Under the pieces are notes generated by a model. That model worked only from the letters and a program-made list of their open reading frames with translations, was not told the origin of the DNA and searched no databases. A stretch of DNA of 64,000 nucleotides, taken from assembly GCA_964451095.1 (NCBI GenBank), contig CAYVGI010000003.1, positions 19,112-83,111 on the forward strand, given 5' to 3'. The position numbers and the translations under genes were made by a program. Positions 15,055 through 26,019 of this stretch are shown piece after piece; position 1 is the first letter of the stretch; every line of letters starts with the position of its first letter. Source of the stretch: an uncultured Anaerolineaceae bacterium (GTDB taxonomy: Bacteria; Chloroflexota; Anaerolineae; Aggregatilineales; Phototrophicaceae).

Positions 15055-16026
15055 GTGCGTATTCTCATAACGGGCATCAGCGGTTTTGTTGGGCAGCACC
15101 TGGCACGTCACCTGCACGCGGCGCTGCCCGATGCCGAACTGCACGGCACAACGCGCACAAGCACGGTCGATATGCCCGGCGTCCACTGCCACGAGCTTGA
15201 CCTGCGCCACCCGGACAGCGTGAGTAGTTTACTGGCGGAGGTGCGCCCGCAGCAGGTATATCACCTGGCAGCGCAGGCGTTTGTACCGCGCTCTTTTAGC
15301 GACCCGTGGGAGACACTGGAAAATAATATTCGTGGGCAGCTCAACCTCATCCTGGCGTGCCTAGAGCTGGACATTGCGCCACGGGTGCTGGTGGTCAGTT
15401 CTGCGGAGATTTACGGTGTTGTCACGCCGGACAAAATCCCCATGCACGAGGACTTACCCCCCCGCCCCACCAGCCCCTACAGCGTGAGCAAAGTCACACA
15501 GGATATGCTGGCGATGCAGTACCACGAAAGCCACGGCTTACCCATCATGCGGGCACGTCCGTTTAATCACTTCGGACCGGGGCAAAACGAGCGCTTTGTG
15601 GCACCTGCGTTTGCGATGCAGGTCGCGAAAATTGAGGCGGGGCTGCAACCACCCATCATTGAGGTGGGCGATCTGTCTGCACAGCGGGATTTCACCGACG
15701 TGCGCGACATCGTTGCGGCGTATCAGCGCATTGTGGAAGCGGGCACCCCCGGCGCAGTCTACAACGTCGCGAGTGGCGAAGCACAAAGCATCCGCTACCT
15801 GCTGGATACCCTGCTGGACTTCGTGGATATGAAAATTGAAGTGAAAATCGACGAAACCCGCCTGCGCCCGGTGCATATCCCTATTTTGCTGGGCGATGCC
15901 ACCCGCCTGCGCACAGAGACAGGCTGGGCACACCAGTACACCTTCGAGCAGTCTCTGTTGGACGTGCTGAATGACTGCCGGGGGCGGGTCAAGCAACTAG
16001 AATCCTCAGACCAGACTTCTGACTAA
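15055..16026 (+). CDS. rmd: GDP-4-dehydro-6-deoxy-D-mannose reductase (GDP-D-rhamnose synthase, Rmd-like SDR)
   Basis: ORF track, 323 aa, GTG start. Motifs: MRILITGISGFVG, SSAEIYG, YSVSK, ARPFNHFGPGQ, VGDLSAQRDFTDVRD, GAVYNVASG. From memory these parallel P. aeruginosa Rmd. Directly upstream of gmd. Confidence 0.72.
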   Translation: MRILITGISGFVGQHLARHLHAALPDAELHGTTRTSTVDMPGVHCHELDLRHPDSVSSLLAEVRPQQVYHLAAQAFVPRSFSDPWETLENNIRGQLNLILACLELDIAPRVLVVSSAEIYGVVTPDKIPMHEDLPPRPTSPYSVSKVTQDMLAMQYHESHGLPIMRARPFNHFGPGQNERFVAPAFAMQVAKIEAGLQPPIIEVGDLSAQRDFTDVRDIVAAYQRIVEAGTPGAVYNVASGEAQSIRYLLDTLLDFVDMKIEVKIDETRLRPVHIPILLGDATRLRTETGWAHQYTFEQSLLDVLNDCRGRVKQLESSDQTSD

Positions 16027-16089
16027 CCACTTTTGCGGAAAGGAGGGCACCCGCCACTGCGCAAACGCGGTGTGGGGTGCAGTGTGCTT

Positions 16090-24539: not shown

Positions 24540-26019
24540 TAACGCATTTGTCGATTGGCTGCTGGCGCTGGACAGGCGCCTCTACGCGCTGCTGGTGGGT
24601 GCAGGGATTGGCGCTGCCGCCGGGCTGCTGGGGTTAGCGCTCGCCTACGCTGGTCCCATCCTCACGACGGCAGCGCTGGTGGGTGTGTTTGGGGCAGTGT
24701 ACGTGCTTACAGACGCACGCGCTGCGCTGTATGGCACACTGGCGACCATGATGGTCTTCCCGTTTGGCACGTTCCCTGTGCGGATTGTGCTTACGCCCAC
24801 CCTGCTTGACCTGACACTGGGCGCGTTTGTGCTGGTGTACTTACTTGGCTGGATTACGGGAAAACGCCAGAACTTCCAGACGACATGGGTACACGCGGTG
24901 CTCACCGCCTACATTGCGGTTTTGATCTTCGCGTTTGTGCTCGGCTGGCGTTATGGTGCCCCGACCAACAACAATTTGCGCCAATTTGCCGAAACCCTGC
25001 TGGCAATCGGGCTGGTGTACATCCTCGTGGACATCACCCGTGACGCGGTCACGCTGCGGCGGCTGGTGCTGCTGGTGATCTTGCTCGTGGGGTTCCAGGC
25101 GGCGCTGGCAATCGCACTCTGGCTGCTGCCAGATGCCTTCGCAGAACGCCAACTTATTCGGTTGGCACGCATCGGCTACCCCAACGGCGGCGTCATCCGC
25201 TATGTAGAGGACAACCGCGAATTAGCAGAGCGTGCCATCGGCACGTGGGTAGACCCGAACGTGCTGGGCGGTGCACTTGCCATCTTCGCTACGATGATTA
25301 CCCCGCAAATCTTCGCCAAGCGCCCCGTGCTGCCGTTCCGCTGGCTGACCTTTGGTGTATGGGGGGTTGTGGTGGTAGCAATGCTGCTAACGTTCTCACG
25401 AGCGGCACTGGTGGGTTTTGCTGCCGGGCTGGTGATTATCGCCGCGTTACGCTACCGGGCGTTGTTCTGGTTGATGGGCGCGGGGCTGGTGCTGCTGTTG
25501 TTTTTGCCGCAAACCCAGTTCTACGTACAGCGCTTTACCCAGGCGTTTGCCGGGCGCGAGGCAGACCCGGCAACGCTCATGCGGATTGGTGAATATGGCG
25601 ACTCGCTGCGGCTCATCCAGCAGTATCCATTCTTTGGCGTTGGGTTTACGGGCACCCCCAGCGCAGATATTTACACCAGTGTTGCCAGCATGTACCTGAT
25701 TATGGCGAACCAGATGGGGCTAGTGGGGCTGGGTATGTTCCTGGTGACGATGACGGCAGTGCTGGTATATGGCTGGCGTGCTTGGCAGCGTGCCCGCCAG
25801 GATGATATGCTGAACGCAATTCTGCTGGGCTACTATGCGGCGCTTGCAACGGCGCTCACAACCAGCCTGGCAGACCTGTACTACTTTCGGCTAGATTTCC
25901 AGGCACCCATTACGCTGTTTTGGCTCACGGTGGCGTTGTGTGTGGCGACAGCACGCATCGCTAATATAACAGAATATGAGCGCGACCAATCAACATTAGA
26001 AACGAATGAATCCTCATGA
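24526..26019 (+). CDS. O-antigen ligase-like (Wzy_C domain) polytopic membrane protein
   Basis: ORF track, 497 aa. AAGGAG at 24514-24519. Overlaps yfhO by 14 nt. At least 10 TM helices and a central loop ...LLTFSRAALVGFAAGLVII... typical of Wzy_C proteins. Confidence 0.72.
   Translation: MQTADNAFVDWLLALDRRLYALLVGAGIGAAAGLLGLALAYAGPILTTAALVGVFGAVYVLTDARAALYGTLATMMVFPFGTFPVRIVLTPTLLDLTLGAFVLVYLLGWITGKRQNFQTTWVHAVLTAYIAVLIFAFVLGWRYGAPTNNNLRQFAETLLAIGLVYILVDITRDAVTLRRLVLLVILLVGFQAALAIALWLLPDAFAERQLIRLARIGYPNGGVIRYVEDNRELAERAIGTWVDPNVLGGALAIFATMITPQIFAKRPVLPFRWLTFGVWGVVVVAMLLTFSRAALVGFAAGLVIIAALRYRALFWLMGAGLVLLLFLPQTQFYVQRFTQAFAGREADPATLMRIGEYGDSLRLIQQYPFFGVGFTGTPSADIYTSVASMYLIMANQMGLVGLGMFLVTMTAVLVYGWRAWQRARQDDMLNAILLGYYAALATALTTSLADLYYFRLDFQAPITLFWLTVALCVATARIANITEYERDQSTLETNESS

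What the first reader, a model, noticed from the sequence alone, without database searches (positions are those of the whole stretch)
15055..26019. GDP-D-rhamnose genes followed by three consecutive GT-C/Wzy_C acceptor-side enzymes, with no initiating transferase, flippase or polymerase
All nine genes are on the same strand. From tatD onward they are essentially fused: GTGATG at 17876-17881, a 3-nt gap at 18803-18805, a 1-nt gap at 19931, a 3-nt gap at 22236-22238, and a 14-nt overlap at 24526-24539. Rmd plus Gmd specify GDP-D-rhamnose. This is a rare sugar, known from the Pseudomonas common polysaccharide antigen and the Aneurinibacillus S-layer glycan. The ManC needed for GDP-mannose is 20 kb away (46108), inserted between dprA and topA. 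After a WbbL-like GT2 and a GT4 come three polytopic enzymes: a 767-aa GT39/ArnT-like protein, a 766-aa YfhO, and a 497-aa Wzy_C protein. A fourth GT-C enzyme lies at 10948. I found no WecA/WbaP-type initiating phosphoglycosyltransferase, Wzx, Wzz or ABC exporter. Each membrane enzyme class is known separately. GT2 plus YfhO glycosylate teichoic acids outside the membrane. PMT/GT39 enzymes O-mannosylate proteins. Wzy_C proteins include the PglL/PilO O-oligosaccharyltransferases. I do not know of a described pathway that combines all three behind a D-rhamnose supply. It is a candidate extracytoplasmic glycosylation system for envelope proteins or polymers.
Basis: partly seen in the sequence, partly recalled or inferred. 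Interest (0 to 1): 0.62.

Follow-up and report, generated by a model that had tools for sequence, protein, structure and literature searches.

The report
Conserved D-rhamnose envelope-glycan operon, Chloroflexota
This is a real, tightly packed operon that a whole order of filamentous Chloroflexota keeps beside a ribosomal-protein gene; it most likely builds a D-rhamnose-containing cell-envelope sugar polymer from known kinds of enzymes, and one of them has lost a histidine that its characterised relatives need.

Summary
The genes are Rmd, Gmd, TatD, a WbbL-like GT2, a GT4, a PMT_2/GT39-like GT-C, a YfhO-family GT-C and a Wzy_C protein, joined exactly as described.

The locus is strongly conserved. 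In 52 species loci with a full 10 kb upstream, YfhO+Wzy_C occur in 52, GT2 and GT4 in 50, tatD in 49, gmd in 45 and rmd in at least 39. The GT39 enzyme occurs in only 25. So the conserved unit is not the "trio". It is GT2-GT4 plus the YfhO-Wzy_C pair, always next to rpsF.

The GT2 is not a CsbB/GtrB-type polyprenyl-phosphate enzyme; such enzymes lie elsewhere in the genome. The genome also holds 5 WbaP-type and 3 WecA/MraY-family phosphoglycosyltransferases, 4 Wzx-like and 3 MurJ-like flippases, and 4 LCP ligases elsewhere.

The Wzy_C protein has a WaaL-like predicted fold and keeps both signature arginines. The histidine required in WaaL, PglL and TfpM is Ala in 98 of 99 orthologs.

Best reading: a housekeeping D-rhamnose envelope-glycan pathway, assembled in the cytoplasm and finished outside the membrane, with priming and export supplied in trans. 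The acceptor is unresolved: wall, lipid, or the adjacent Pro/Thr-stalked DUF4397 lipoprotein. I class it as a new variant of a known kind.

The parts
15055..16026 (+). rmd: GDP-4-keto-6-deoxy-D-mannose reductase (SDR, 323 aa)
   Evidence: The best PDB matches are the two solved Rmd enzymes, aligned full length with YxxxK present: 2pk3 E 2.6e-72 and 6x3b E 2.7e-69. Single copy in the genome. Orthologs are syntenic.
16033..17067 (+). gmd: GDP-mannose 4,6-dehydratase (the true start is probably near 16090)
   Evidence: TIGR01472 equivalog scores 459.5 bits against a cut-off of 415. Pfam GDP_Man_Dehyd E 7e-133.
17097..17879 (+). tatD-family metal-dependent nuclease/hydrolase, embedded in the operon
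   Evidence: TatD_DNase 292 bits; TIGR00010 280 bits. Kept at this position in 49 of 52 complete loci. No known link to glycan synthesis.
17876..18802 (+). GT2 (GT-A) glycosyltransferase, WbbL/rhamnosyltransferase-like, with one C-terminal hydrophobic helix (residues 258-276)
   Evidence: Glycos_transf_2 82.6 bits. The NCBIfam neighbours are MftF, PRK10073 and TIGR01556 rhamnosyltransferase; there is no ArnC/PgfS/PpgS/AglJ hit. PDB neighbours are chondroitin synthase, GalT1 and TarS-type enzymes, not GtrB or DPMS. Hydropathy. Present in 50 of 52 loci.
18806..19930 (+). GT4 (GT-B) cytoplasmic glycosyltransferase
   Evidence: Glyco_trans_1_4, Glycos_transf_1 and Glyco_transf_4 domains. No predicted TM helix. 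Present in 50 of 52 loci.
19932..22235 (+). Accessory GT-C enzyme, PMT_2/GT39/ArnT-like (767 aa): about 9 or more TM helices plus an extracytoplasmic beta-rich C-terminal half of about 300 aa
   Evidence: PMT_2 33.2 bits (cut-off 26.1). The ArnT equivalog scores only 22.9 bits against 567. Hydropathy. Present in only 25 of 52 complete loci and duplicated in L020 and L027. Paralogs lie on C16 and C2, and the C-terminal module recurs at 12 further sites in the genome.
22239..24539 (+). Core GT-C enzyme of the YfhO family (766 aa): N-terminal TM core, beta-sandwich ectodomain, final TM helix
   Evidence: PF09586 61.3 bits. AlphaFold2 model pLDDT 89.5, pTM 0.90. Foldseek: ArnT 5f15 E 5e-7, then AftD, EmbC, AglB and DPY19. 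The first-loop G44-D45-F46-S47 motif, D82, H205, R272, R361, E364 and R365 are kept in nearly all of 89 orthologs. An ortholog (full-length match, E <= 1e-100) is present in about 58 of 60 relatives and in 52 of 52 loci.
24526..26019 (+). Wzy_C-superfamily membrane protein (497 aa) lacking the WaaL/PglL histidine
   Evidence: PF04932 43.2 bits. AlphaFold2 pLDDT 83.6. Foldseek: WaaL 7tpg E 8.6e-7, then FtsW and RodA. No PDB hit by sequence profile. R292 and R353 are kept in 99 of 99 orthologs. The His position of H-[NSQ]-x9-G-x2-G is Ala in 98 of 99 and Ser in 1 of 99, while all 5 other Wzy_C paralogs of this genome keep His.
12860..14968 (+). DUF4397 lipoprotein with a Pro/Thr stalk of about 40 aa after the lipobox Cys; candidate acceptor, 86 nt upstream of rmd
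   Evidence: DUF4397 x3, 119 bits. Sequence. The lipobox and a 40-60 aa Pro/Thr stalk are conserved in all six relatives whose N-terminus was in the fetched DNA. It or its paralog lies upstream of rmd in many loci.
46108..47193 (+). ManC (mannose-1-phosphate guanylyltransferase), an unlinked supplier of GDP-mannose
   Evidence: NTP_transferase and ManC_GMP_beta-helix domains. The only copy in the assembly. Flanked by dprA and topA.

Best explanation
This is a vertically inherited, housekeeping operon of the Aggregatilineales/Phototrophicaceae lineage of Anaerolineae. It makes a cell-envelope glycoconjugate that contains D-rhamnose.

Supported by homology:
- ManC (unlinked), Gmd and Rmd make GDP-D-rhamnose.
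- The WbbL-like GT2 and the GT4 are of cytoplasmic-face types that use nucleotide sugars.
- YfhO and the GT39-like protein have the GT-C fold, which acts outside the membrane.
- The Wzy_C protein has a WaaL/SEDS-like fold and keeps its two signature arginines. By analogy with WaaL these are taken to bind a polyprenyl-diphosphate donor; that role is inferred, not tested here.

Inferred:
- An unlinked phosphoglycosyltransferase primes a polyprenyl carrier. The genome has 5 WbaP-type and 2 non-MraY WecA-type enzymes.
- GT2 and GT4 add D-rhamnose, and perhaps other sugars, to build a lipid-linked oligosaccharide or rhamnan.
- An unlinked Wzx/MurJ-type flippase exports it.
- Outside, the His-less Wzy_C protein handles the diphosphate-linked glycan. 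Because the ligase histidine is missing, polymerisation seems more likely than WaaL/PglL-type ligation.
- Its invariant partner YfhO either adds sugars from polyprenyl-phosphate donors, made by ArnC/PgfS-like GT2s encoded elsewhere, or transfers the chain to its final acceptor.
- The GT39-like enzyme is an optional decorating or extending enzyme.
- The final acceptor is unknown. It could be peptidoglycan via one of the 4 LCP enzymes, a membrane lipid, or Pro/Thr-rich lipoproteins.
For: - The genes are tightly joined or overlapping on one strand.
- Rmd and Gmd identities are firm.
- The GT2 is not of the polyprenyl-phosphate type, while C56:16910-17899 (ArnC 2.6e-63, PgfS 3.9e-47, two C-terminal TM helices) and C2, C145, C20 and C16 are.
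- YfhO has the GT-C fold with conserved first-loop Asp.
- Wzy_C has a WaaL-like fold with both Arg kept and His replaced by Ala. The literature shows that this His is needed in WaaL, PglL and TfpM (PMC3643930, PMC9829042).
- Synteny holds across 20 + 80 loci from different species, always next to rpsF.
- The YfhO ortholog (full-length match, E <= 1e-100) is in about 58 of 60 relatives, but only 13 of 201 genomes across the phylum have a match, and the 11 such loci I fetched have no rmd or gmd beside it.
- A ManB-like gene sits between gmd and tatD in three other families.
- PGTs, Wzx, MurJ paralogs and LCP enzymes are present elsewhere in the genome.
- There is a known precedent for cytoplasmic GTs plus a polymerase plus GT-C transfer (PMC10821137).
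Against: - No priming enzyme or exporter is linked to the locus in any of about 100 loci, so the lipid carrier and the export route are pure inference.
- The role split between Wzy_C and YfhO is not resolved by any test here.
- His-to-Ala might instead mean a non-catalytic scaffold.
- In Ca. Flexifilum breve the YfhO-Wzy_C pair stands without rmd, gmd, GT2 or GT4 nearby. So the pair may serve a glycan that is not intrinsically D-rhamnose based.
- Sequence cannot exclude that the Rmd-like reductase makes GDP-6-deoxy-D-talose.
Confidence: 0.55

Rival explanations
1. A protein O-glycosylation system, like an S-layer glycan cluster. The D-rhamnose glycan is built on a lipid carrier and transferred en bloc to Ser/Thr in Pro/Thr-rich stalks of exported proteins, first of all the DUF4397 lipoprotein encoded directly upstream. 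The transferase would be the Wzy_C protein (as with WsaB or PglL) or the YfhO/GT39 GT-C enzymes (as with PMT or Pgf).
For: - The DUF4397 lipoprotein lies 86 nt upstream on the same strand, with a lipobox plus a 40-60 aa Pro/Thr stalk conserved in six relatives.
- DUF4397 genes lie upstream of rmd in many species.
- O-OTase genes often sit next to their target genes (PMC3643930).
- S-layer glycan clusters of Gram-positive bacteria use Wzy_C O-OTases, and one of them (A. thermoaerophilus) makes a D-rhamnose glycan (PMC2943079).
- The weak NCBIfam neighbours of YfhO are the streptococcal adhesin-glycosylating enzymes PgfM1 and PgfM2.
Against: - The Wzy_C protein lacks the histidine required in PglL, TfpM and WaaL (PMC9829042).
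- Pro/Thr stalks are also plain wall-spanning spacers.
- DUF4397 adjacency may be plain synteny: the same block also holds AdoHcyase, tatD and rpsF.
- No glycoprotein evidence exists for this lineage.
- The PgfM hits are far below cut-off (34 bits against 1400).
Confidence: 0.25
2. A three-component extracytoplasmic D-rhamnosylation system. The GT2 (or the GT4) loads D-rhamnose from GDP-D-rhamnose onto polyprenyl phosphate. After flipping, YfhO and the GT39 enzyme transfer single D-rhamnose residues to a wall polymer or protein. This would parallel CsbB/YfhO, GacI/GacL or the corynebacterial decaprenyl-P-rhamnose/RptA route.
For: - GT2 and YfhO co-occur in 50 of 52 loci, and also in two distant lineages without rmd (L031, L036).
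- The GT2 has a C-terminal membrane helix.
- GT-C enzymes use polyprenyl-phosphate sugars as a rule.
Against: - The GT2 gives no match to the ArnC, PgfS, PpgS, AglJ or DPM models that other GT2s of the same genome hit strongly. Its nearest models are MftF and rhamnosyltransferase-type enzymes that act on acceptors.
- No GtrA-type or Wzx flippase is in the locus.
- This reading leaves the GT4 and the Wzy_C protein without a role.
Confidence: 0.12
3. No common pathway. The genes are neighbours only because this part of the chromosome is frozen in the lineage, so sugar-nucleotide genes, tatD, soluble GTs and membrane enzymes serve different products.
For: - tatD, AdoHcyase, rpsF, PpiC and FhaA are conserved in the same block although they are functionally unrelated.
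- Flexifilum keeps YfhO-Wzy_C without the rest.
Against: - Overlapping or 1-3 nt junctions run from tatD to Wzy_C.
- All non-tatD genes are glycan enzymes.
- The GT2-GT4-YfhO association recurs outside the order.
- A ManB-like gene has been recruited into the same block in other families.
Confidence: 0.08

Closest known systems
Rhamnose-rich cell-wall polysaccharide pathways of Lactococcus and Streptococcus (cwps/rgp/wps; GAC GacI-L), PMC10821137, PMC9574508
   Same: - A rhamnose supply operon is fused to cytoplasmic GT2/GT4 enzymes.
- Later steps outside the membrane use GT-C fold enzymes and a polymerase-type membrane protein.
- The polymer is a housekeeping wall component, and LCP enzymes are present in the genome.
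   Different: - The sugar here is GDP-D-rhamnose, not dTDP-L-rhamnose.
- The locus has no TagO, ABC transporter, Wzx or GacI/WpsA-type polyprenyl-P GT2.
- The polymerase-like protein is a His-less Wzy_C.
- The organism is a monoderm-type Chloroflexota.
S-layer glycan (slg) clusters of Aneurinibacillus thermoaerophilus L420-91T and Geobacillus stearothermophilus NRS 2004/3a (WsaB/WsfB O-OTases), PMC2943079
   Same: - A. thermoaerophilus has a D-rhamnose supply by Rmd/Gmd.
- Rhamnosyltransferases of GT2/GT4 type are present.
- A Wzy_C-domain membrane protein is in the cluster.
- The cluster lies next to a gene for a surface protein.
   Different: - slg clusters carry WsaP (the priming enzyme) and Wzm/Wzt, and have no GT-C enzymes.
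- The Wzy_C protein here lacks the catalytic His.
- The neighbouring protein is a DUF4397 lipoprotein, not a known S-layer protein.
Pseudomonas aeruginosa common polysaccharide antigen (rmd-gmd-wbpW, WbpX/Y/Z, Wzm/Wzt, WaaL)
   Same: - Rmd and Gmd are adjacent to GT4-type transferases.
- The priming enzyme is encoded elsewhere.
- The final step uses a Wzy_C-family protein.
   Different: - CPA has an ABC exporter in the cluster and ligates to lipid A-core.
- It has no GT-C enzymes.
- ManC (WbpW) is in the CPA cluster, whereas here it lies 20 kb away.

This comparison rests on my own knowledge of the CPA locus, not on a tool result.
Mycobacterial/corynebacterial arabinogalactan and lipomannan/LAM assembly (WbbL, GT4 PimA/B, GT-C Emb/Aft/Mpt, RptA)
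   Same: - It has a WbbL-like GT2 and GT4 enzymes at the cytoplasmic face.
- Several GT-C enzymes act outside.
- Priming enzyme and flippase are unlinked or unknown.
- Foldseek places YfhO near AftD and EmbC.
- An actinobacterial-style fhaA-rodA-pbpA operon lies next door.
   Different: - The sugars differ, and there is no Wzy_C protein in those pathways.
- Sequence similarity is only at the fold level.
CsbB/YfhO (B. subtilis LTA), GtlA/B, and S. mutans Pgf (PgfS-PgfM1-PgfE-PgfM2)
   Same: A YfhO-family GT-C acts outside the membrane. The weak best NCBIfam neighbours are PgfM1 and PgfM2.
   Different: The partner GT2 in this locus is not of the CsbB/PgfS type. Extra GT4, Wzy_C and sugar-nucleotide genes are present.

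Membership tests
GDP-D-rhamnose pathway (Gmd + Rmd) | GDP-mannose 4,6-dehydratase | tested here: met
   TIGR01472 equivalog scores 459.5 bits against a cut-off of 415.
GDP-D-rhamnose pathway (Gmd + Rmd) | GDP-4-keto-6-deoxy-D-mannose 4-reductase related to characterised Rmd | tested here: met
   Full-length alignment to both solved Rmd enzymes (2pk3 E 2.6e-72; 6x3b E 2.7e-69). The next hit is at 1e-39. YxxxK is present.
GDP-D-rhamnose pathway (Gmd + Rmd) | The product is D-rhamnose rather than its C4 epimer 6-deoxy-D-talose | not testable with these tools
   Needs an enzyme assay with NMR or chiral GC.
YfhO family (PF09586) GT-C glycosyltransferases | Pfam model above its gathering score | tested here: met
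   61.3 bits against 28.5, but only residues 672-745 align. All listed homologs carry PF09586.
YfhO family (PF09586) GT-C glycosyltransferases | GT-C fold with a conserved acidic residue in the first outside loop | tested here: met
   AF2 pLDDT 89.5. Foldseek matches ArnT, AftD, EmbC and AglB. D45 is kept in 87 of 87 aligned orthologs.
CsbB/GtrB-type two- or three-component glycosylation (GT2 + flippase + GT-C) | A polyprenyl-phosphate GT2 (ArnC/GtrB/PgfS/DPM1-like) encoded with the GT-C | tested here: not met
   The cluster GT2 hits none of these models and no GtrB or DPMS structure. Genuine members lie at C56, C2, C145, C20 and C16.
CsbB/GtrB-type two- or three-component glycosylation (GT2 + flippase + GT-C) | A GtrA- or Wzx-type flippase in the locus | tested here: not met
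   There is no unassigned ORF space from tatD to Wzy_C, and none in about 100 related loci.
GT39/PMT_2/ArnT-like GT-C | PMT_2 model above its gathering score | tested here: met
   33.2 bits against 26.1.
GT39/PMT_2/ArnT-like GT-C | ArnT equivalog | tested here: not met
   NF009784 scores 22.9 bits against a cut-off of 567.
WaaL/PglL/PilO-type O-antigen ligases and O-oligosaccharyltransferases | Wzy_C domain and WaaL-like fold | tested here: met
   PF04932 43.2 bits against 31.7. Foldseek WaaL 7tpg E 8.6e-7.
WaaL/PglL/PilO-type O-antigen ligases and O-oligosaccharyltransferases | Two conserved arginines (E. coli WaaL R215 and R288) | tested here: met
   R292 and R353 align with the Arg of the genome's other Wzy_C proteins and are kept in 99 of 99 orthologs. 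The mapping to E. coli numbering is by motif, not by direct alignment.
WaaL/PglL/PilO-type O-antigen ligases and O-oligosaccharyltransferases | Essential histidine of H-[NSQ]-x9-G-x2-G (WaaL H338, PglL H349, TfpM H286) | tested here: not met
   Ala in 98 of 99 orthologs and Ser in 1 of 99. All 5 paralogs in the genome keep His. The requirement is documented in PMC3643930 and PMC9829042.
Wzx/Wzy-dependent polysaccharide pathway | Priming PGT, Wzx flippase and Wzz co-polymerase encoded with the polymerase | tested here: not met
   None is in the locus. PGTs and 4 Wzx-like genes lie on other contigs. Wzz was not searched.
ABC-transporter-dependent pathway (CPA, slg) | Wzm/Wzt exporter in the cluster | tested here: not met
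   No such ORF in the window cluster or in the related loci. A genome-wide Wzm/Wzt search was not done.
S-layer/protein O-glycosylation cluster | The target glycoprotein gene lies next to the cluster | tested here: inconclusive
   A DUF4397 lipoprotein with a conserved Pro/Thr stalk is adjacent. Whether it is glycosylated, or forms a surface layer, cannot be told from sequence.

The most novel reading that the evidence does not exclude
The invariant pair of a YfhO-family GT-C and a His-less (Ala) Wzy_C protein, fixed next to rpsF in several hundred Aggregatilineales species, is an undescribed two-enzyme finishing module. The Wzy_C protein would polymerise or hold a diphosphate-linked D-rhamnan without the canonical histidine. 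The GT-C enzyme, rather than a WaaL, PglL or LCP enzyme, would transfer the chain en bloc to its acceptor: peptidoglycan, a lipid anchor, or the Pro/Thr stalks of DUF4397 lipoproteins. This would make a D-rhamnan the essential secondary wall polymer of this monoderm-type lineage.
Probability: 0.15. Interest if true: 0.75.

Novelty: new variant of a known kind. Interest (0 to 1): 0.45.

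Why it matters
- The envelope chemistry of filamentous Chloroflexota is almost unknown. Its layers are only "suggested" to be polysaccharide or protein (PMC13319060).
- This locus is a concrete, order-wide candidate for a core envelope polymer, and it points to D-rhamnose. One survey found that pathway only in Pseudomonas and Aneurinibacillus (bioRxiv 10.1101/854612).
- It also offers a natural, strongly conserved His-to-Ala variant of the Wzy_C signature. That variant can test what the histidine does in ligases as against polymerases.
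- It gives a clean YfhO/Wzy_C gene pair for asking whether GT-C enzymes can carry out the final transfer step.
- Cultured relatives exist for experiments, for example Phototrophicus methaneseepsis (PMC8941918).

Tried and rejected
- **Cluster GT2 as the CsbB/GtrB partner of YfhO:** rejected on NCBIfam and PDB neighbours.
- **Wzy_C as a standard WaaL/PglL ligase:** weakened by the missing histidine. A sequence profile of 48 orthologs finds no PDB chain at E <= 1, so residue mapping to WaaL rests on motif alignment with paralogs.
- **Hidden PGT or flippase genes in the gaps of related loci:** none found. The gaps hold only a ManB-like gene, an unidentified 397-aa ORF in one locus (L019, not scanned against any family library), inteins, or no long ORF on the cluster's strand; opposite-strand ORFs in the gaps were not listed.
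- **Promoter and terminator scan inside the cluster:** nothing above the shuffled background, so it is uninformative.
- **Phylum-wide search:** YfhO relatives outside the order (31-38% identity, 13 of 201 genomes) sit with GT39-like genes, and sometimes with GT2-GT4 or Wzy_C genes, but never with rmd or gmd.
- **Literature searches:** searches for a described YfhO + Wzy_C + D-rhamnose system in Chloroflexota found none.
- **Not attempted:** assigning which of the 5+2 PGTs and 4+2 flippase candidates serves this locus.

Full report
**Observation.** tatD and GT2 overlap by 4 nt. Gaps of 3, 1 and 3 nt follow, and YfhO and Wzy_C overlap by 14 nt.

All domain assignments hold:
- Gmd passes the NCBIfam equivalog cut-off.
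- The first SDR aligns end to end with the two solved GDP-4-keto-6-deoxy-D-mannose reductases, 2pk3 at E 2.6e-72 and 6x3b at E 2.7e-69. The next PDB hit is thirty orders of magnitude weaker.
- TatD, GT2, GT4, PMT_2, YfhO and Wzy_C are all above their Pfam gathering scores.
- The upstream GT-C (10900-12789) and the distant ManC between dprA and topA are also confirmed.

**Organism and conservation.** Close homologs come from MAGs labelled Phototrophicaceae, Aggregatilineales or Anaerolineae. The window lies on contig 3 of a 5.0-Mb, 94%-complete MAG.

The YfhO ortholog (full-length match, E <= 1e-100) is present in about 58 of 60 relatives from the same family and order. Across the phylum only 13 of 201 genomes have a match at E <= 1e-60, at 31-38% identity outside the family, and the 11 such loci I fetched have no rmd or gmd beside it.

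Twenty loci fetched around the orthologs show one gene order: AdoHcyase, DUF4397, DUF4397, rmd, gmd, tatD, GT2, GT4, (GT39), YfhO, Wzy_C, rpsF, PpiC, FhaA. Eighty more loci, found with a Wzy_C profile in one genome per GTDB species, show the same order. At least 582 contigs in that collection encode a relative.

Counts for the 52 loci with a full 10 kb upstream:

| Gene | Loci with it (of 52) |
|---|---|
| YfhO | 52 |
| GT2 | 50 |
| GT4 | 50 |
| tatD | 49 |
| gmd | 45 |
| rmd | at least 39 (cut off where GT39 is present) |
| GT39-like GT-C | 25 |

But the conserved unit is not the three membrane enzymes. It is GT2-GT4 plus the YfhO-Wzy_C pair, with the GT39 enzyme as an accessory that is absent in half the species and duplicated in some. 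In Ca. Flexifilum breve the YfhO-Wzy_C pair stands next to rpsF without any of the upstream glycan genes.

**The soluble enzymes.** The GT2 has one C-terminal hydrophobic helix. Its nearest NCBIfam models are MftF, PRK10073 and the TIGR01556 rhamnosyltransferase subfamily. Its nearest structures are chondroitin synthase, GalT1 and TarS-type enzymes.

It gives no hit to ArnC, PgfS, PpgS, AglJ or dolichyl-phosphate hexose transferase models. Other GT2s in the same genome do hit those models:
- C56:16910-17899 scores 2.6e-63 to ArnC and 3.9e-47 to PgfS, and has two C-terminal TM helices.
- C2, C145, C20 and C16 carry DPM1/PpgS-like enzymes.

So the "GT2 + YfhO" pairing is not the CsbB/YfhO type. 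The GT2 and the GT4 most likely use nucleotide sugars, including GDP-D-rhamnose, at the cytoplasmic face. The GT-C enzymes must draw polyprenyl-phosphate sugars from synthases encoded elsewhere.

**The membrane enzymes.** An AlphaFold2 model of YfhO, built on 49 sequences, has pLDDT 89.5 and pTM 0.90. It has a GT-C core, a beta-sandwich ectodomain and a last TM helix. Foldseek ranks ArnT, AftD, EmbC, AglB and DPY19 first. The first-loop G-D-F-S motif and several charged residues are kept in nearly all of 89 orthologs.

The Wzy_C model (pLDDT 83.6) matches WaaL 7tpg first, at E 8.6e-7, and then FtsW and RodA. A profile of the family finds no PDB chain by sequence.

I aligned the Wzy_C domain with the five other Wzy_C proteins of this genome. 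Both signature arginines are kept (R292 and R353, 99 of 99 orthologs). The histidine of the H-[NSQ]-x9-G-x2-G motif is present in all five paralogs, but here it is Ala in 98 of 99 orthologs and Ser in one.

That histidine is required in WaaL (H338), PglL (H349) and TfpM (H286) (PMC3643930, PMC9829042). This protein therefore fails a defining feature of the ligase/O-OTase group, while remaining under strong constraint (mean column identity 67%). Some source databases label its homologs PslJ, a putative polymerase. I read it as polymerase-like or otherwise non-canonical, but this is inference.

**What is missing, and where it is.** No priming enzyme, flippase or exporter lies in the locus, in this genome or in about 100 related loci. 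The gaps in related loci hold a ManB-like gene, an unidentified 397-aa ORF in one locus (L019), inteins, or no long ORF on the cluster's strand; opposite-strand ORFs there were not listed. Elsewhere the genome encodes:
- 5 Bac_transf and 3 Glycos_transf_4 enzymes;
- 4 Wzx-like proteins;
- 3 MurJ-like proteins, one of them at 38057-39757 in this window;
- 6 Wzy_C proteins;
- 4 LCP enzymes.

A 37%-identical GT2 paralog sits just upstream of a Bac_transf gene on C80. Priming and export in trans is also the rule for the Pseudomonas CPA primer and for much of mycobacterial wall assembly; that comparison is my own knowledge.

**Acceptor.** Directly upstream (86 nt, same strand) lies a DUF4397 lipoprotein. 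Its lipobox Cys is followed by a Pro/Thr stalk of about 40 residues. Lipobox and stalk are conserved in all six relatives whose N-terminus was fetched. This fits a protein O-glycosylation reading. S-layer glycan clusters use Wzy_C O-OTases, and one of them makes a D-rhamnose glycan (PMC2943079).

Against that reading, the same frozen block also contains unrelated housekeeping genes, the His is missing, and Pro/Thr stalks need not be glycosylated. LCP enzymes make a peptidoglycan-linked polymer equally possible.

**Verdict.** The locus is real, conserved and clearly a glycan pathway. Every module is of a known kind. The general design is already described for Gram-positive rhamnose wall polysaccharides (PMC10821137) and for mycobacterial arabinogalactan: cytoplasmic GT2/GT4 assembly, a polymerase-family protein, and GT-C enzymes outside.

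Four things are particular to this locus:
- the D-rhamnose supply as a lineage-wide core trait in Chloroflexota;
- the invariant YfhO/Wzy_C pair;
- the conserved His-to-Ala change;
- the complete absence of linked priming and export genes.

GT-C enzymes are very abundant in this genome. There are about 15 PMT_2-type paralogs, and a second cluster on C16 holds at least six GT-C genes. A run of three polytopic enzymes is therefore not unusual here.

I rate it a new variant of a known kind, interest 0.45. Earlier notes of this scan on other Chloroflexota glycan loci reached similar conclusions. I used them only as leads.

Noticed in passing
L024 (same genus), L023 and L025: gmd orthologs: In three relatives gmd carries an in-frame insert between '...GILFNHE' and 'SPRRGLEF...'. 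The insert starts with Cys and ends with His-Asn before Ser, which is an intein signature. It is about 225-340 aa, and the longest copy has a LAGLIDADG-like block. The window's own gmd has no insert.
   Followed up: partly
window 17097-17879: A TatD-family nuclease/hydrolase gene sits inside the glycan operon, overlapping the GT2 start. It is kept there in 49 of 52 species loci. No functional link is known.
   Followed up: partly
own genome, contig C16:27760-49614: A second cluster holds at least six GT-C proteins: two PMT_2, a 34%-identical paralog of the 767-aa enzyme, and three YfhO-like. It also holds a PpgS/DPM1-like GT2, a Ser/Thr kinase and TolB-like beta-propeller proteins.
   Followed up: partly
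window 21700-22235 (C-terminal roughly 150 aa of the 767-aa GT-C): This beta-rich module recurs at 12 further loci of the genome at 27-37% identity, and also in distant Chloroflexota next to YfhO-like genes. No Pfam model matches it.
   Followed up: no
window 35298-36464 (-) and 36533-39757 (+): An LPG_synthase_TM ('PplT', putative lipid translocase) gene lies here. Next to it is a C39-like peptidase/TPR protein joined (3-nt gap) to one of three MurJ paralogs. These are possible trans-acting flippase candidates for the glycan locus (bioRxiv 10.1101/2022.03.11.483950).
   Followed up: no
own genome, contig C80:1038-3358: A 37%-identical paralog of the cluster GT2 lies immediately upstream of a WbaP-type phosphoglycosyltransferase.
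   Followed up: no
L019, L020, L027 (other families of the order): A phosphomannomutase/phosphoglucomutase-like gene (N-terminal FGTDGWRG) is inserted between gmd and tatD. This ties the block to GDP-mannose metabolism.
   Followed up: partly
window 10900-12789: The PMT_2 GT-C between the two DUF4397 genes is not at that position in most relatives, where the two DUF4397 genes abut. About 15 paralogs of it exist in the genome.
   Followed up: partly
L061 (Candidatus Flexifilum breve): YfhO-Wzy_C-rpsF is present, but rmd, gmd, tatD, GT2 and GT4 are not within 10 kb. An MltG/YceG gene lies upstream instead.
   Followed up: partly
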